40,402 nt of DNA. Source: a virus. Its lineage: Duplodnaviria > Caudoviricetes. This document shows, one piece after another, positions 7,229 to 37,133 of this stretch. The stretch lies in IMG/VR virus record IMGVR_UViG_3300017648_000007, positions 1-40,402 of that record; one strand, written 5' to 3'. Positions within the stretch are counted from its first letter, which is position 1, and each line of letters starts with the position of its first letter. The notes under the pieces were generated by a model. The model searched no databases. It was not told the origin of the DNA and was given only the letters and a program-made list of their open reading frames with translations. The position numbers were made by a program, and so were the translations under genes.

Positions 7229-7596
7229 GCCACCTCATATTCAGGAGTTGGAGCCGTGAGAGCTTCGCGGAGTTCGAAGAACCATGAGGGCTTTCGAACC
7301 CACAGCAGGTCCAGCTCGTGCCGTTCGGTCTGGTAGGCGCGGGCCAGTGCTGCCCGTTGTGCCGTTGAATTGACCGCCTTGCTGCGAACCATCTCGCTCA
7401 GGTGATTGATGACGCGCTGGCGTCCGGCGAGGCTGTGGTCGCTCAGATCCATGCCTACGGGCCAGTCTGCGACGTGCTCGGCCGCGCAGAGTTCCAGGGT
7501 GCGCAGAGCTGTCGGGCGGATGGCCTTGTCGCTGGCCCGAAGATATTCGCTGGCCGTTTCCAGCTCGTCTGTCGCTAATCTCGTGAAATCGACCAT
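7225..7596 (-). CDS. Hypothetical protein, first gene of the PL operon
   Basis: MVDFTRLAT...; directly downstream of the PL leader. Confidence 0.65.
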   Translation of the reverse strand: MVDFTRLATDELETASEYLRASDKAIRPTALRTLELCAAEHVADWPVGMDLSDHSLAGRQRVINHLSEMVRSKAVNSTAQRAALARAYQTERHELDLLWVRKPSWFFELREALTAPTPEYEVA

Positions 7597-7700
7597 TGGT
7601 CTGCATCCCATCGCTGAATTGCTCAGTTCGACGGGGCTACCTGCTGGGGAGAGGTATCAGCGTTGGTAGGAGTGCAGGTTGCGCCCCGTCGATGAGGTCA

Positions 7701-7753
7701 ACAATATCCGCTTTCGCGGACGTGTCAACAACAATCGTCCGCTATCGAGGATA
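7701..7753 (-). promoter_or_regulatory. PL promoter with operators OL1/OL2
   Basis: Minus strand TTGACA-16-TATTGT; 18-bp near-palindromes at 7705-7722 (tatccgctttcgcggacg) and 7736-7753 (cgtccgctatcgaggata). Confidence 0.85.
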
Positions 7754-7791
7754 TTTTTTGTTGCATTCAACAGGCGACGCATGAGATGGAT

Positions 7792-8030
7792 GGGGCGTTA
7801 AACCGGCCATAGGGTGCAATTCCCTCACTGGTGAAGCCGGGTGCGCGGGAGTCGAAAGTCCTACGGCGCTACCAGAAACAGAGGACGGATTAGCCGAGAG
7901 GCGTCCTGCTTATGCGATGCGACCGATGCGACGGTTCACTCGCAGCAAACGACTCTCCCGCCTTTCGTGGCCTAGCGGCTATGAGGGGTAGGGGGAGTCT
8001 TTGCTTGCTCCGCTCCCTCTGCTCTGGTTC
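7792..8030 (+). ncRNA. Putative structured non-coding RNA of unknown family
   Basis: No long ORF; nested stems, GNRA loops, ~27-bp hairpin with six G-U pairs; ends approximate. Confidence 0.6.
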
Positions 8031-8101
8031 AGAGCTGTATAGGGAATATCGCTACACGGAAATGGGTTATCTAGCACGGTGCTGACAACTCAGTGCAAAT
8101 C

Positions 8102-8116
8102 GTTCACGATATGTTC
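8102..8116. promoter_or_regulatory. Alphaproteobacterial LexA box abutting a TTGACC -35
   Basis: GTTC-acgatat-GTTC immediately followed by ttgacc. Confidence 0.8.
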
Positions 8117-8166
8117 TTGACCACCCAGAAGGCGGCATGTTCCTATGGCATCATAGGGGGGAAAGC

Positions 8167-8307
8167 ATGACTGTTTCTGAATTGCTGCTGCTCATGGAGA
8201 GCTTGACGGATCAACAAAAAGCTAACCGTCTGAGGGATTTCAAGACTTTAGAAACTCGAGAAGAGCCTTCCGCCGCTCAGGCGAAGCCCTCTCTAGCTCC
8301 CGAATAA
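8167..8307 (+). CDS. 46-aa putative SOS-inducible antirepressor (not in ORF track)
   Basis: AGGGGGG RBS, ATG 8167, MTVSELLLLMESLTDQQKANRLRDFKTLETREEPSAAQAKPSLAPE; downstream of the LexA box; 3' end overlaps cI. Confidence 0.5.
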   Translation: MTVSELLLLMESLTDQQKANRLRDFKTLETREEPSAAQAKPSLAPE

Positions 8308-8536
8308 TCGCTTCGGTTTCAGGGCTCATATCGACACCATACAGAACGTACGAGAGGCTCACGCCCATTTCTCTGCAAAGCGCCACCAGGTTGTCGATCG
8401 ACGGATCTTTGCCCTCAACCAAAATGCCGTGCATGTAGCCGTGCCCTAGTCCCGCGCCTAGGGACACTGCCCTTTTGGACTTGCCGCTCTTTTCGAGAGC
8501 TGTGGCAAGCCTGCCTCTCCAATCTTCCTTACTCAT
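8240..8536 (-). CDS. CI-like XRE repressor without S24 peptidase domain
   Basis: HTH (KSKRAVSLGAGLGHGYMHGIL...DPSIDNLVALCREMGVSLSYVLYG); divergent from cro; 98 aa. Confidence 0.85.
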   Translation of the reverse strand: MSKEDWRGRLATALEKSGKSKRAVSLGAGLGHGYMHGILVEGKDPSIDNLVALCREMGVSLSYVLYGVDMSPETEAIIRELERASPERRKALLEFLKS

Positions 8537-8545
8537 GAGGCCGAA

Positions 8546-8618
8546 TATCCTCTATTTCGGCCACGCACGCACGTATTCTATCGAGGATGCTTGACGCGTC
8601 CGCGAAAGCGGATATGAT
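8546..8618 (+). promoter_or_regulatory. OR operators and PR promoter
   Basis: TTGACG-16-TATGAT (8591-8618); operators 8546-8563, 8572-8589 and 8597-8614, the last being the exact reverse complement of 7705-7722. Confidence 0.85.
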
Positions 8619-10875: not shown

Positions 10876-10930
10876 CGACTTTGTTAACAAATCAGCATGA
10901 TTCCCGCAAGCGTCGTTTTGAGGTGTGCAC

Positions 10931-12391
10931 ATGTTGATGCGTACCGAAACGGCGATGGGGATAGAAGCCGCCCCGCGGGAAGCGCCGCACAACATCGACG
11001 CAGAACAGGCGCTGCTGGGTGCGATCCTGGTGCACAACGAGGCATACGAGCGCGTCGTTGATGTCATCAGCGCGGGCCATTTCTACGACCCGCTGCATCA
11101 GGCGCTGTTCGAGACGGCGGCCAAGATGCTCGCGGCCGGCACGCATGTTTCCGCGGCGACGCTGCGCACGTTCTTCGAGAACGCGCCACCGATCACCGAT
11201 GATCTGACTGTTCCGGAATATCTAAACCGTCTGGCGTTCAACGCGGCAACGGTGGCGAGCGCTCGGGCCTACGCCGAGACGATCCGGGATTTGGCCATTC
11301 GGCGCCAGATTATCGCCATTGGTCAGGACGCGGCAGAGGCAGCGTTTGAGGCGGATATAGACACGCCGCCAAGCGTTCTGATCGAGGAAACCGAGCAAGC
11401 GTTGTTTGCGCTGGCAGAGGCCGGAAGCGATGGCCGTAGCGAGGTGACGTTCGCGCAATCCGTAGATGTCGCCCTGGAGCGTATGCAGGAAGCCCTGAAG
11501 CACGGCGGCCGCATGCGTGGGCTGTCGACCGGGCTGGCCGATCTGGACGACAAGCTAGGCGGGTTGGTGCCGGCACGGCTCTACATTCTGGCGGGCCGTC
11601 CGGGCATGGGCAAAACCGCGCTGGCAACGAACATCGCTTGGCACGTCGCTAAGAGCGGCACCCATGACGACAACGGGGAGTGTATCCCGGCTCCGGTGGA
11701 TTTCTTCTCGCTGGAAATGGCCCACGACGAGCTGACAGAGCGGATCGTATCGGGGGAGTGCGGCGTCAGCTCATCGAAGCTGCAACGCGGTACAGCGGCA
11801 CCGCATGAGGTGGAAGCGGCTATCAGAGCGGGCAGCCGCATCCGCAACGTTCCGCTCATCATCGATGACCGCGGCGGCGTCACGCTTGCCCAGATTGCGG
11901 CGCGCGCACGACGCCGGAAGCGCAAGCACGGAACGGCGTTGATCGTCATCGACTACTTGCAACTGATCCGCGGCAAAGGCCGTGAAAACCGCGTTCAGGA
12001 AATCACCGAGATAACGACCGGGCTCAAGGCTCTGGCGAAGGAGCTGCACGTCCCGATCATCGCTCTGTCGCAGCTTTCCCGAGCAGTCGAGCAGAGAGAG
12101 AACAAGCGCCCGCAGCTCTCGGACCTGAGAGATTCCGGATCGATCGAGCAAGACGCAGACGTCGTGCTCTTTGCCTACCGCGAAGAATACTACATCCGGC
12201 AGCGCGAGCCGGACGGCGCGGACGGAGCGGCCTATTCGAAATGGCAAGAGGAACTGCTCGCTGCGCAAGGCAAGGCAGAGGTCATCATCGCCAAGCAGAG
12301 GCAGGGGCCTACGGGCTCCGTGCCGCTGGCGTTCCAGGCTGAACTGACAAGGTTCTCAAACCTCTCACGACAGGGGGGCGATTATGCGTAG
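10931..12391 (+). CDS. dnaB: Replicative DNA helicase
   Basis: PHNIDAEQALLGAIL, AGRPGMGKT, FSLEM, IDYLQL, LSQLSRAVEQRENKRPQLSDLRDSGSIEQDAD. Confidence 0.97.
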   Translation: MLMRTETAMGIEAAPREAPHNIDAEQALLGAILVHNEAYERVVDVISAGHFYDPLHQALFETAAKMLAAGTHVSAATLRTFFENAPPITDDLTVPEYLNRLAFNAATVASARAYAETIRDLAIRRQIIAIGQDAAEAAFEADIDTPPSVLIEETEQALFALAEAGSDGRSEVTFAQSVDVALERMQEALKHGGRMRGLSTGLADLDDKLGGLVPARLYILAGRPGMGKTALATNIAWHVAKSGTHDDNGECIPAPVDFFSLEMAHDELTERIVSGECGVSSSKLQRGTAAPHEVEAAIRAGSRIRNVPLIIDDRGGVTLAQIAARARRRKRKHGTALIVIDYLQLIRGKGRENRVQEITEITTGLKALAKELHVPIIALSQLSRAVEQRENKRPQLSDLRDSGSIEQDADVVLFAYREEYYIRQREPDGADGAAYSKWQEELLAAQGKAEVIIAKQRQGPTGSVPLAFQAELTRFSNLSRQGGDYA

Positions 12392-13427
12392 ACGCGGCGA
12401 TCCTTGGTTCAAATTCTACCCGCAAGATTGGATCGATGGCACGCGCGACCTCACGCCTGAGCAGCGCGGCGCATACATCGACATGATCGCACTGCAGATG
12501 CTGAGCGGTGACCCGGTTAAGGATGACTACGCTTGGCTCGGTCACCAGATGCACATCTCGTCTCGCAAGGCGCGGTCGCTCGTTGAGAGCTTGATCGAGG
12601 CAACCAAGCTGATCCGGACAGAGCGCGGGATACTCAACGAGAGGGCAGCTGTAGAGATCGAGGCGCGCGAAAAACAGCGCCGGGCGAACTCAGAGATTGC
12701 CGTCGAACGCGAGCGAAAGAACCGCGAAAAGTCCGTGAAACTTCCGCGAACCATCCGTGAAACTTCCGCGAAAATAGCAGATAACGACGTCGAAAATTGC
12801 GAATTAACTAATGAAATCAACGAATGGGTTGCAAGTTCGTGCCACGAAAGAAGCACCACGCGCGCGCGTTCAGATACAGATACAGAGTTAGAGATAAGTA
12901 ATAACCCCCTTTCCCCCTTACGGGGGGACGGGATGTCTGAGCCAAAACCAGCACCTAGGAAGCGCATCCCCTACTCGGACGACTTCGAGAAGTTTTGGAG
13001 TGAGTACCCGGACACTCGCGGTATGTCGAAAGCGAACGCCTGGAAGCGTTGGCGAGCTCTGACCGCTGACGAGCGGGATGCGGCTTACCGCGCACTGCCC
13101 GCGTTCCGTGAACTGCTAGCCGAGCGCCGCCGTAAATCGCCGGACGCTGTGACGCTTCACGCCGAGGGATATCTCAGTCAACGCCGGTTCGAAACGCTGG
13201 CCGAAGCCAAGCCGGCAGGGCCGTGGTGGAAGGACCCCAACCTGCTGGCCGAGATGACGCTGGAACGGTGGCGCAAGGGGATCCGCCAGTACGCGAACGG
13301 AATCTGGCGGGTGGCGGAGTTGGGGCCAGCACCGGGGCATCCGCAATGCGTCGTGCCGGCGCAACTCATTGCCGAGCTACGGCTCGATGAAATCTACGAC
13401 AGCCAGGGGATGAGACGATGCAACTGA
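12384..13427 (+). CDS. Phage replication initiator (DUF1376/YdaU N-terminus)
   Basis: PWFKFYPQDWIDGTRDLTPEQRGAYIDMI; FEKFWSEYP...KANAWKRW; internal iterons. Confidence 0.88.
   Translation: MRRRGDPWFKFYPQDWIDGTRDLTPEQRGAYIDMIALQMLSGDPVKDDYAWLGHQMHISSRKARSLVESLIEATKLIRTERGILNERAAVEIEAREKQRRANSEIAVERERKNREKSVKLPRTIRETSAKIADNDVENCELTNEINEWVASSCHERSTTRARSDTDTELEISNNPLSPLRGDGMSEPKPAPRKRIPYSDDFEKFWSEYPDTRGMSKANAWKRWRALTADERDAAYRALPAFRELLAERRRKSPDAVTLHAEGYLSQRRFETLAEAKPAGPWWKDPNLLAEMTLERWRKGIRQYANGIWRVAELGPAPGHPQCVVPAQLIAELRLDEIYDSQGMRRCN
12722..12930. other. Probable replication origin (iterons plus AT-rich tract)
   Basis: Five 11-bp units CCG(C/T)GAA-N4 at 12722-12776, then gaaaattgcgaattaactaatgaaatc. 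Confidence 0.75.
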
Positions 13428-17246: not shown

Positions 17247-17284
17247 GCGCAGCTCCGGCCTTGCTGTATTTGATCGCGGGCGGC

Positions 17285-17470
17285 TTAGGCAAACAGGCTA
17301 TGGACCGCCTTGCGGCCCCAGACGATGACGAGCGCCCCGTACGTGGCGATGGCGGAGGCTCCGATGCTGCCCAGGGTGGTAGGCTGGAAGTTCAGGGCCG
17401 TGACGATGGTTGCGAAGATTGCGGTCCAGAGGGCTGCGGTAGCTGCGATCTTGAGGAAGGTCTTGGTCAT
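17285..17470 (-). CDS. Small two-TM membrane protein (moron)
   Basis: 61 aa, AAGGAG RBS, own promoter and terminator. Confidence 0.75.
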   Translation of the reverse strand: MTKTFLKIAATAALWTAIFATIVTALNFQPTTLGSIGASAIATYGALVIVWGRKAVHSLFA

Positions 17471-17512
17471 TTGGCTTCTCCTTGGTTTGCGTTTCCCGTC
17501 TTTCTGATTATG

Positions 17513-17608
17513 AATCTACACAAAGATTGCGCATCTGTCAATGGGGCAGGCACAAAGATTGTGTAATTTTCTTGCTAAACCCCGGGTTTTTGTGCTAAAG
17601 ATTGCGCA
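17513..17608. promoter_or_regulatory. Divergent promoter region with three 17-bp operators
   Basis: Minus strand TTGACA-17-TAGATT; tacacaaagattgcgca, ggcacaaagattgtgta, gtgctaaagattgcgca. Confidence 0.75.
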
Positions 17609-36483: not shown

Positions 36484-36510
36484 AGCCCGCCTTGTGCGGG
36501 CTTTTTATTC
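36484..36510 (+). terminator. Rho-independent terminator
   Basis: agcccgc-cttgt-gcgggct-ttttatt. Confidence 0.8.
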
Positions 36511-37092
36511 GAGCCACGACCAATTACGTCCGTAGACTGCGTAGATGATCGTGGATCGGGCTACGTTGTAACGTTCAGCGATCCTATCGAATGTCATTTC
36601 GGGGCGAAGTTTTCGGATTGTGCGAACGTCATCGGCAGACAGCTTTGTATTTGGAAGCCTCTCGCCGCGTGCCGCTGTCCCGTGGAGAACTGAGTCCTCA
36701 TAGTTTTCACTCCTCGTGGCCCAACGCAGATGCTTTGGGTTTACGCAACCGCTGTGACCCTTGCCACAGCTGTGGGCTGCTACGTGTTGATCGCTGGGCG
36801 GCTTTCCGTGAGCAAGTTCGCAGATGTACCGGCTGGCATAATGCCTGCGGCCGCCGAAATTGAGAACGGCGCGTCCGTACTTGTCCGGCTGAAATGGCCA
36901 AATCAGGCATTCGTCACTGGCGTGACTTAGCGCGGTCTCTCTGATCCATTTTTGCGTTGTTCCGTTCGCAGGACGCAGCGATTTCGTAGGGTCGCCGTTC
37001 CGACGAAGCCGCTTGTAGTGCTTTGTGCACAAGCCACGAGCCAAGTGTAAATTCTGGCACCCTTCAACGGTGCAAATCGTTCTATCTGTCAT
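36505..37092 (-). CDS. Free-standing HNH homing endonuclease
   Basis: CTVEGC...ARGLCTKHY; ECLIWP; AAHSCG...CVNPKHLRWATRSEN; C-terminal HTH. Confidence 0.88.
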   Translation of the reverse strand: MTDRTICTVEGCQNLHLARGLCTKHYKRLRRNGDPTKSLRPANGTTQKWIRETALSHASDECLIWPFQPDKYGRAVLNFGGRRHYASRYICELAHGKPPSDQHVAAHSCGKGHSGCVNPKHLRWATRSENYEDSVLHGTAARGERLPNTKLSADDVRTIRKLRPEMTFDRIAERYNVARSTIIYAVYGRNWSWLE

Positions 37093-37133
37093 CTGCACAT
37101 TATAGCAGTAATCGAACAATAGAGGGCAAATCT

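What the first reader, a model, noticed from the sequence alone, without database searches (positions are those of the whole stretch)
7792..8030. Large structured ncRNA candidate in the immunity region
Seen: the ORF track is empty from 7785 to 8239, and hand folding gives an almost fully paired + strand RNA. Elements are a T-loop-like AGGG-UGCAAUU-CCCU within ACCGG/CUGGU; a GAAA-capped stem (7840-7870); a closing helix ACCAGAAACAGAGG (7871) / CCUCUGCUCUGGU (8016); GCC-GAGA-GGC; UGCGA..GACCG/CGGUU..UCGCA; and a ~27-bp hairpin at 7945-8004 with six G-U pairs. Wobbles and GNRA loops point to RNA-level selection on the + strand. A weak promoter (TTGCAT-16-TGAGAT, 7761-7787) lies divergent from PL beside OL2. 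Inference: it occupies the slot where lambdoid phages keep lysogen-expressed immunity or exclusion genes (rexAB/sieB), so it may be an RNA-based immunity, anti-defence decoy or regulatory element. I cannot assign it to a known family.
Basis: partly seen in the sequence, partly recalled or inferred. Interest (0 to 1): 0.85.

Follow-up and report, generated by a model that had tools for sequence, protein, structure and literature searches.

The report
Self-anchoring phage RNA, likely replication primer
Next to the repressor gene of a temperate bacterial virus lies a conserved, uncatalogued sequence predicted to fold into a knotted RNA whose two loop tags copy sequences at its own far end, so it would likely grip the DNA it is read from and likely start DNA copying the way ColE1 plasmids do, which is still untested.

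Summary
Window 7803-8031 (+) belongs to a family of over 90 non-redundant members, mostly alphaproteobacterial temperate phages, sitting between the leftward promoter and the repressor; no Rfam match. A double-pseudoknot model covaries (32 of 43 pairs change on both sides). Two direct-repeat tags change together: a 7-nt loop tag equals the end of the 3' G-tract (58 of 68; held-out 19 of 25) and a loop hexamer equals a 3'-terminal hexamer (55 of 68; 18 of 25). The hexamer has no same-strand complement, and mismatches favour RNA-on-template wobble (16 vs 2). Vibrio ColE1-type origins show the same layout and the identical G-tract, but profile searches find no homology. Best reading: a compact ColE1-like primer RNA forming an R-loop origin (0.55). 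No expression data; this phage also has a likely protein-initiated origin. The scan met this family twice before on other DNA, filed near P4 CI/c4, and similar self-anchoring RNAs in other phages.

The parts
7701..7728 (-). Leftward early promoter PL (-35 at 7728, -10 ending 7701), divergent from the RNA
   Evidence: inverted copy of the rightward promoter at 8591-8615
7703..7722 (.). Operator-like repeat OL1
   Evidence: D4, I1, I2
7736..7755 (.). Operator-like repeat OL2, 5 nt upstream of the RNA promoter's -35
   Evidence: D1, I2, I3; repressor binding inferred
7761..7789 (+). Likely promoter of the RNA (-35 TTGCAT at 7761; -10 poorly defined)
   Evidence: same distance from the core as TTGAC in homologs; not called
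7803..8031 (+). Conserved structured element, predicted RNA (5' end probably a few nt earlier)
7803..7840 (+). 5' domain: P1 (7803-7807/7836-7840) and T-loop hairpin (7812-7824); replaced by another fold in some members
   Evidence: helices 1-2
7828..7875 (+). Pseudoknot P4: 7828-7831 with 7872-7875
   Evidence: 88% paired, 3 of 4 pairs change on both sides
7842..7870 (+). Stem P2: 7842-7846 with 7866-7870
   Evidence: 98.8% paired
7847..7853 (+). Tag alpha (GGGAGTC), in the loop closed by P2, followed by GAAA; direct copy of the end of the 3' G-tract
7858..7886 (+). Pseudoknot P3: 7858-7862 with 7882-7886
   Evidence: 97.9% paired, 2 of 5 pairs change on both sides
7887..7906 (+). P5, GNRA-capped stem
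   Evidence: helices 7-8
7907..7938 (+). Segment X, imperfect direct repeat of Y, ending in hexamer GGTTCA (7933-7938)
7945..8004 (+). Long hairpin: C-rich arm (beta) and G-rich arm
   Evidence: helix 9
7985..7999 (+). G-tract gamma (G4-TA-G5-AGTC); last 7 nt equal alpha
   Evidence: same tract form at the Vibrio ColE1-type origin
8003..8031 (+). Segment Y, ending in hexamer GGTTCA (8026-8031); predicted anchoring site on the template strand and predicted neighbourhood of the RNA-DNA junction
   Evidence: junction position is inference from the ColE1 layout
8240..8536 (-). cI-like repressor, convergent with the RNA
   Evidence: weak HTH_3 match; position between operator sets
10925..12391 (+). 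DnaB-like helicase, candidate user of the opened DNA
12384..13427 (+). DUF1376 initiator-like protein with 22-bp-period repeats at 12715-12800 (possible second, protein-initiated origin)

Best explanation
The element is a conserved, covarying sequence with two co-varying direct-repeat tags, predicted to be a self-anchoring RNA that likely re-pairs with its own template DNA to form a lasting R-loop and likely primes rightward phage DNA replication, as ColE1 RNA II does. Steps: (shown) fold, tags, polarity, position, promoter signal. (Inferred) RNA polymerase starts beside OL2; the 5' half folds into a double pseudoknot that holds tag alpha and segment X next to each other at the end of helix P3; as polymerase passes the G-tract and Y, alpha and X pair with the template strand of gamma and Y and keep the bubble open; host RNase H cuts near the gamma/Y junction, host Pol I extends the 3' end rightwards, and the phage DnaB (or the host restart primosome) is loaded on the displaced strand. 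Because no antisense RNA I promoter is conserved, control would likely come from the repressor at OL2; whether it turns the promoter off or on is unknown. In this particular phage it would be a second origin beside a likely iteron origin in the DUF1376 gene.
For: RNA-level fold: 91.5% of cells paired, 32 of 43 pairs with both-side changes, slid controls 47-57%. alpha equals gamma in 58 of 68 with 9 matched states (permutation 20+-3); X6 equals Y6 in 55 of 68 with 12 matched states (permutation 3.87 vs 5.65 of 6); held-out metagenome members 19 of 25 and 18 of 25. No column window complements Y6 beyond permutation (best 2.97 of 6). In 57 of 59 members with alpha=gamma the only same-strand partner, beta, is not fully Watson-Crick and in 11 has a true mismatch, so the identity is tighter than a shared RNA partner needs. 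Transitions between copies are G>A or T>C (wobble on the template) 16 times, reverse 2 times; distinct variants 12 vs 1, p=0.003. The ColE1-type origin of Vibrio plasmid pSDH-2 has a G-run plus GNRA loop inside a stem, then X, a hairpin with the identical 13-nt G-tract, then Y, and X/Y change together among 8 such origins. ColE1 needs an rG stretch pairing with a template dC stretch (PMC4412123, passages). L014 and L026 lie 1.0 and 0.4 kb (start to start) upstream of dnaB, followed by an initiator-like ORF that lacks the N-terminal DUF1376 part. Orientation is fixed: recombination genes upstream on the opposite strand in 42 of 102, repressor downstream opposite in 65 of 102. RNA-based prophage origins exist in mycobacteriophages (PMC7157519, passages).
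Against: No profile-level homology to ColE1-type origins in either direction: best E 2.3 on ColE1, nothing at the Vibrio origin, covariance model of 8 Vibrio origins misses the element in the window and 19 loci. A crude architecture filter passes 45 of 101 member tracts, 20 of 401 background tracts, only 2 of 4 origin tracts it could score, and one non-origin ColE1 tract. The X:template hybrid is weak: better than all flanking windows in only 25 of 68 members. This phage has a DUF1376 protein with iteron-like repeats. Scarcity of initiators in RNA-bearing phages (DUF1376 2 of 50; HTH_36 over cut-off 1 of 31) is not specific: 1 of 9 RNA-lacking controls had HTH_36, and 2 RNA-bearing phages carry a DUF7146 primase-like gene. 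Permutations ignore kinship. No transcript, R-loop or replication data exist.
Confidence: 0.55

Rival explanations
1. The RNA anchors on its template, but the R-loop or stalled polymerase is regulatory or recombinational: a roadblock that stops repressor or cargo transcripts from entering the PL operon, or a hot spot that helps swap the cargo genes beside it.
For: Same tag evidence. Fixed place between PL and cI. No terminator-like site on the - strand between cI and the element in the window. Variable cargo follows it. This phage has another likely origin.
Against: A plain terminator would do; L014 and L026 sit before dnaB without a nearby repressor hit; the layout and G-tract match plasmid origin regions.
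Confidence: 0.2
2. The tags pair with an antisense RNA (repressor read-through across gamma and Y), making it an RNA-RNA immunity switch that works like P4 CI or P1 c4.
For: An antisense transcript has the same sequence as the template strand, so the polarity test cannot tell them apart; cI is convergent.
Against: An antisense RNA would pair perfectly with gamma-Y itself; - strand promoter-like sites pointing into the RNA in only 5 of 70 and scattered; no Rfam C4 match; cargo on either strand often lies between.
Confidence: 0.1
3. A trans-acting immunity or anti-defence decoy RNA; the repeats are protein-binding sites or by-products of local duplication and conversion.
For: Elaborate fold with T-loop and GNRA loops; slot shared with defence-like cargo.
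Against: Does not explain one-way wobble polarity or the kept GA-versus-UC differences inside X and Y; no partner gene is shared among members.
Confidence: 0.09
4. A leader (riboswitch or self-cleaving RNA) for downstream cargo, or a retron-like template.
For: DUF5131 follows on the same strand in 11 of 102; invariant core bases.
Against: In the window the next credible gene is the convergent repressor; no reverse transcriptase among 55 scanned window proteins; no Rfam ribozyme or riboswitch match.
Confidence: 0.06

Closest known systems
ColE1 RNA II pre-primer / origin (Enterobacterales; record NC_001371)
   Same: Upstream G-run, GGAGC word repeated at the origin, C-rich/G-rich hairpin, direct repeat before the hairpin and just after the G-tract (by eye; passes the filter); rG-dC pairing is essential there (PMC4412123 passages).
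   Different: About 235 nt against about 550; no significant profile match; no conserved antisense RNA I promoter; in integrating phages of Alphaproteobacteria, whereas ColE1 replicons were found in five orders of Gammaproteobacteria (PMC8683028 passages); function untested.
ColE1-like Vibrionaceae (CLV) origins, e.g. pSDH-2 (PMC5703827, section 12 read)
   Same: G-run plus GNRA loop closed by a stem, co-varying X/Y repeat, hairpin whose 3' arm is the same 13-nt G-tract, similar tag-to-tract spacing (118 vs 146 nt start to start).
   Different: Covariance model and HMM do not cross-detect; there the bases after the loop pair upstream (nested), here downstream (pseudoknot); no T-loop domain seen; has RNA I. 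The paper's figure marking the RNase H site could not be seen.
RNA-based origins of cluster A parABS mycobacteriophage prophages (PMC7157519, passages)
   Same: Non-coding RNA needed for phage DNA replication without a Rep protein.
   Different: Those maintain extrachromosomal prophages beside parABS; this sits in the immunity region of an integrase-bearing phage; sequences were not compared.
P4 CI RNA / P1-P7 c4 antisense RNA (Rfam C4; mechanism recalled, not read)
   Same: Structured RNA in a phage immunity region.
   Different: They pair with complementary targets on the same strand; here the co-varying partner is a direct repeat with no same-strand complement; no Rfam match.

Membership tests
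ColE1-family origin (RNA II) | Sequence or covariance-model homology to ColE1-type origins | tested here: not met
ColE1-family origin (RNA II) | Upstream G-rich RNA tag matching a G-tract near the 3' end (RNA rG on template dC) | tested here: met
   sequence-level only:
ColE1-family origin (RNA II) | C-rich/G-rich hairpin flanked by a direct repeat | tested here: met
   also in Vibrio origins; filter only moderately specific
ColE1-family origin (RNA II) | About 550-nt pre-primer with overlapping antisense RNA I | tested here: not met
   promoter-to-end about 240 nt; - strand promoter-like sites in 5 of 70, scattered
ColE1-family origin (RNA II) | Persistent hybrid, RNase H cleavage, Pol I extension, autonomous replication | not testable with these tools
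   needs bench work
ColE1-family origin (RNA II) | No replicon-encoded initiator needed | tested here: inconclusive
   DUF1376 2 of 50, HTH_36 1 of 31 vs 1 of 9 controls; the window has DUF1376
P4 CI / P1 c4 immunity RNAs | Match to Rfam model | tested here: not met
P4 CI / P1 c4 immunity RNAs | Loop sequences complementary to same-strand targets | tested here: not met
   none inside the element; flank scan found no standout partner but was insensitive
Retron msr-msd | Adjacent reverse transcriptase and conserved a1/a2 closing helix | tested here: not met
   no RT among 55 window proteins; closing helix outer part 45% paired
Any Rfam 15 family (riboswitch, ribozyme, tRNA-like, tmRNA) | cmscan or ARAGORN match | tested here: not met

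The most novel reading that the evidence does not exclude
Many temperate phages of Alphaproteobacteria carry a repressor-controlled, protein-free replication origin made of a 235-nt double-pseudoknot RNA that uses a split, re-programmable guide (7-nt tag plus about 30-nt segment) to invade its own template: a minimal ColE1-type primer in which the anchoring pairs can be read from covariation, and which in some phages has replaced the DNA-binding half of the initiator.
Probability: 0.45. Interest if true: 0.88.

Novelty: new variant of a known kind. Interest (0 to 1): 0.74.

Why it matters
If true, it moves RNA-primed origins from Gammaproteobacterial plasmids into the immunity region of integrating phages, under operator control instead of antisense control. 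It would also make an old question testable: a review states that what triggers the persistent hybrid at the ColE1 origin remains speculative (PMC5043065, passage). Here over 90 diverse natural variants give base-by-base predictions of which RNA letters pair with which template letters, including a second, longer anchor that Vibrio origins and ColE1 also seem to have. A compact, re-taggable origin could also give new compatible vectors for rhizobia.

Tried and rejected
Rfam, ARAGORN: nothing. Profile homology to ColE1-type origins both ways: negative. blastn of two members against PLSDB found only prophages on large Pseudochrobactrum plasmids and short chance matches, no small plasmid using this element. 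Origins of pB1005 and pES213 could not be located by motif; the Aeromonas pAsal3 origin fits only by eye. Sequencing runs: no RNA holder listed; DNA contigs of 4 runs showed relatives only. GC skew turns between about 6 and 9 kb but follows gene direction, so it was not used. Initiator control: set small (9 records) and Pfam insensitive, inconclusive; only 133 of 500 right-arm ORFs were scanned; an alignment-based locus search was not possible. Duplex energies use RNA-RNA parameters as a stand-in: X on Y-template beat the reverse in 92 of 93 and in all 9 plasmid origins by 0.1-5.6 kcal, but composition can cause this and the hybrid is no stronger than the best chance partner in 1.5 kb. Dropped rows: chance pattern hits without the rest of the element (e.g. 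L052, L076, L088, L099, L104, L107, L112, L113); L014 and L026 left out of alignment A2 (68 of 70); L015, L030-type duplicates and L114 handled by the parser and the 90% filter (L015 missed by the parser); of 120 metagenome loci 52 matched the HMM, 31 were new, 25 non-redundant; three of the 25 (L256, L261, L308) were mis-registered at X6/Y6 and counted as misses. Literature searches found no description of this family or of a ColE1-like origin in such phages; the library lacks most subscription papers, and supplements of large RNA-motif surveys were not searched. One search opened an unrelated paper. PMC3035462 (passages) gave nothing usable. Hammerhead, group II domain V, retron and ssDNA primase-site readings were considered from recall and dropped because the matching letters vary or the fold favours the + strand.

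Full report
Setting. The window is a complete 40.4-kb virus record with terminal repeats. It encodes an integrase, ERF and YqaJ recombination proteins, a small HTH repressor, GcrA, DnaB, a DUF1376 protein and SU10-type head proteins: a temperate phage, alphaproteobacterial by its GcrA and by the hosts of its relatives. Five operator-like repeats flank the repressor, two at 7703-7755 and three at 8544-8615. The element lies between PL and the 3' end of the repressor gene, one copy per genome.

The observation. The + strand folds at z -3.46, the - strand at -2.55. Rfam and ARAGORN give nothing. blastn found relatives in two phage records and in prophages on Pseudochrobactrum plasmids, each right beside the start of the leftward operon and followed by different cargo. 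Pattern scans of viral, genome and metagenome contigs gave 84 distinct and 70 non-redundant members and later 25 more. Named hosts of true members are Hyphomicrobiales; two phage records are labelled Synechococcus, which I did not check.

Structure. On a plain MAFFT alignment of 68 members, a 43-pair model with two pseudoknots is 91.5% paired, with 32 pairs changing on both sides; slid controls give 47-57%. I drew the pseudoknots by eye from these same sequences and the nested stems partly from RNAalifold, so the counts lean towards the model, and kinship is not removed. Tetraloops swap within GNRA and G-U pairs are common, which points to RNA on the + strand. A promoter-like pair precedes the RNA in 22 of 70 members against 1 of 69 controls, and the window's -35 lies at the same distance.

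The key feature. Two stretches in loops are direct copies of stretches at the 3' end, and each pair changes together. Tag alpha (7847-7853) equals the last 7 nt of the G-tract (7993-7999) in 58 of 68, in 9 states; the hexamer ending X (7933-7938) equals the hexamer ending Y (8026-8031) in 55 of 68, in 12 states. Members found afterwards kept both rules, 19 and 18 of 25, with new states. No part of the RNA complements the hexamer. Alpha could pair with the hairpin's C-rich arm, but that arm drifts (not fully Watson-Crick in 57 of 59, mismatched in 11) while alpha stays equal to gamma. Where copies differ by a transition, the upstream copy has G for A or U for C 16 times and the reverse twice: what is expected if the upstream copy pairs with the complement of the downstream copy. 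In the window's subtype X has GA where Y has UC, which on the template gives tandem G-A mismatches (structures). The hybrid is weak on its own, so it would work only in cis, during transcription. I put self-pairing with the opposite strand at about 0.8.

Comparison with RNA-primed origins. I recalled that ColE1 RNA II uses an upstream G-run to grip a template C-run; a review passage confirms that this rG-dC interaction is essential (PMC4412123). The ColE1 record shows a repeated GGAGC word, a C-rich/G-rich hairpin and a direct repeat on both sides of it. The Vibrio plasmid pSDH-2, whose origin region is described as 97% like experimentally studied ColE1-like Vibrio origins (PMC5703827 section 12), is closer: G-run plus GNRA in a stem, X, hairpin with the same 13-nt G-tract as the common phage form, then Y; X and Y change together among 8 Vibrio origins. 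Against membership: HMMs and a covariance model do not cross-detect (the Vibrio HMM's best hit fell in the element in 5 of 36 loci with any hit, best E 0.04), the architecture filter is only moderately specific, the RNA is less than half as long, and no RNA I promoter is conserved. So it likely works like RNA II, but is not filed as a ColE1 origin.

Genomic context. A repressor-like gene lies downstream on the opposite strand in 65 of 102 loci and recombination genes upstream on the opposite strand in 42 (flanks often too short). The two most divergent members lie just before dnaB, followed by an initiator-like ORF without its N-terminal part; their X/Y repeat is not evident. In 14-kb right arms of 32 records a DnaB-like gene was found in 17, mostly not followed by a recognisable initiator; DUF1376 occurs in 2 of 50 records. 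A small control set lacking the RNA was no richer in recognisable initiators, so this point is open. The window itself is an exception with DUF1376 and 22-bp-period repeats.

Verdict. A real, uncatalogued structured RNA family. Best mechanism: co-transcriptional self-anchoring that primes replication (0.55); regulatory or recombinational R-loop (0.2); antisense RNA switch (0.1); decoy (0.09); leader or ribozyme (0.06). Nothing here shows expression; no RNA run was listed. Six paper searches found no description. Papers seen: PMC5043065, PMC7157519, PMC3035462, PMC8683028, PMC4412123 as passages; PMC8683028 also supplement rows; PMC5703827 passages and section 12; the primary ColE1 and CLV papers were not read. 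The scan's earlier notes list this family on two other genomes near P4 CI/c4 and self-anchoring primer-like RNAs in other phages; I had written down the ColE1 reading, before either look-up, and those notes are unchecked AI leads, not support.

Noticed in passing
L207 2420-2800 (-), L214 2420-2800 (-), L222 2420-2740 (-), L223 2230-2600 (+), L199 2250-2600 (+): Other elements with the same G-tract and a Y-like tail but a different 5' part; L223 has a 16-nt X/Y repeat and an ERF gene upstream, L207 and L214 follow an SF2 helicase gene, L199 precedes RecE/RecT. Possibly sister families.
   Followed up: partly
L010 and L075: Two prophage records whose ids share one genome number carry elements with different alpha tags and different X/Y types, as if tags act like incompatibility groups; one case only.
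   Followed up: partly
window 7907-7938; L224 1310-1370: Type-A X segments share 8-11-nt words with the GA-rich hairpin downstream of the ColE1 origin (7 of 68 members), recalled as the primosome assembly site; X on the Y template would mimic its tandem G-A pairs.
   Followed up: partly
L224 1078-1088 and 1192-1204; L231 3961-3975 and 4058-4071: ColE1 and Vibrio origins have a direct repeat before the hairpin and right after the G-tract that may be an unrecognised second RNA-template anchor; not found described in my searches.
   Followed up: partly
window 12715-12800: 22-bp-period imperfect repeats inside the DUF1376 gene, a likely iteron origin.
   Followed up: no
L367 6734-8230 and cluster 0: Many RNA-bearing prophages have a divergent stand-alone DnaB (22-30% identical to the window's) preceded by an unassigned 200-aa RuvC-like-looking protein and followed by a 100-125-aa unknown.
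   Followed up: partly
L004-L006, L012, L014: DUF5131 (with TcmP in L006) is the commonest cargo directly behind the RNA, 11 of 102.
   Followed up: no
L403 about 7560-7900 (-): A relative without this RNA has a different GC-rich, hairpin-rich stretch ending in a G-tract at the same slot.
   Followed up: no
L004, L005: Two phages deposited as Synechococcus phages carry this element and a DUF5131-like gene in an alphaproteobacterial-style layout; the host label may be wrong.
   Followed up: no
window 17261-17566 and 36505-37119: A small ORF between SSB and terminase and an HNH gene on the - strand in the late region look like inserted genes.
   Followed up: no
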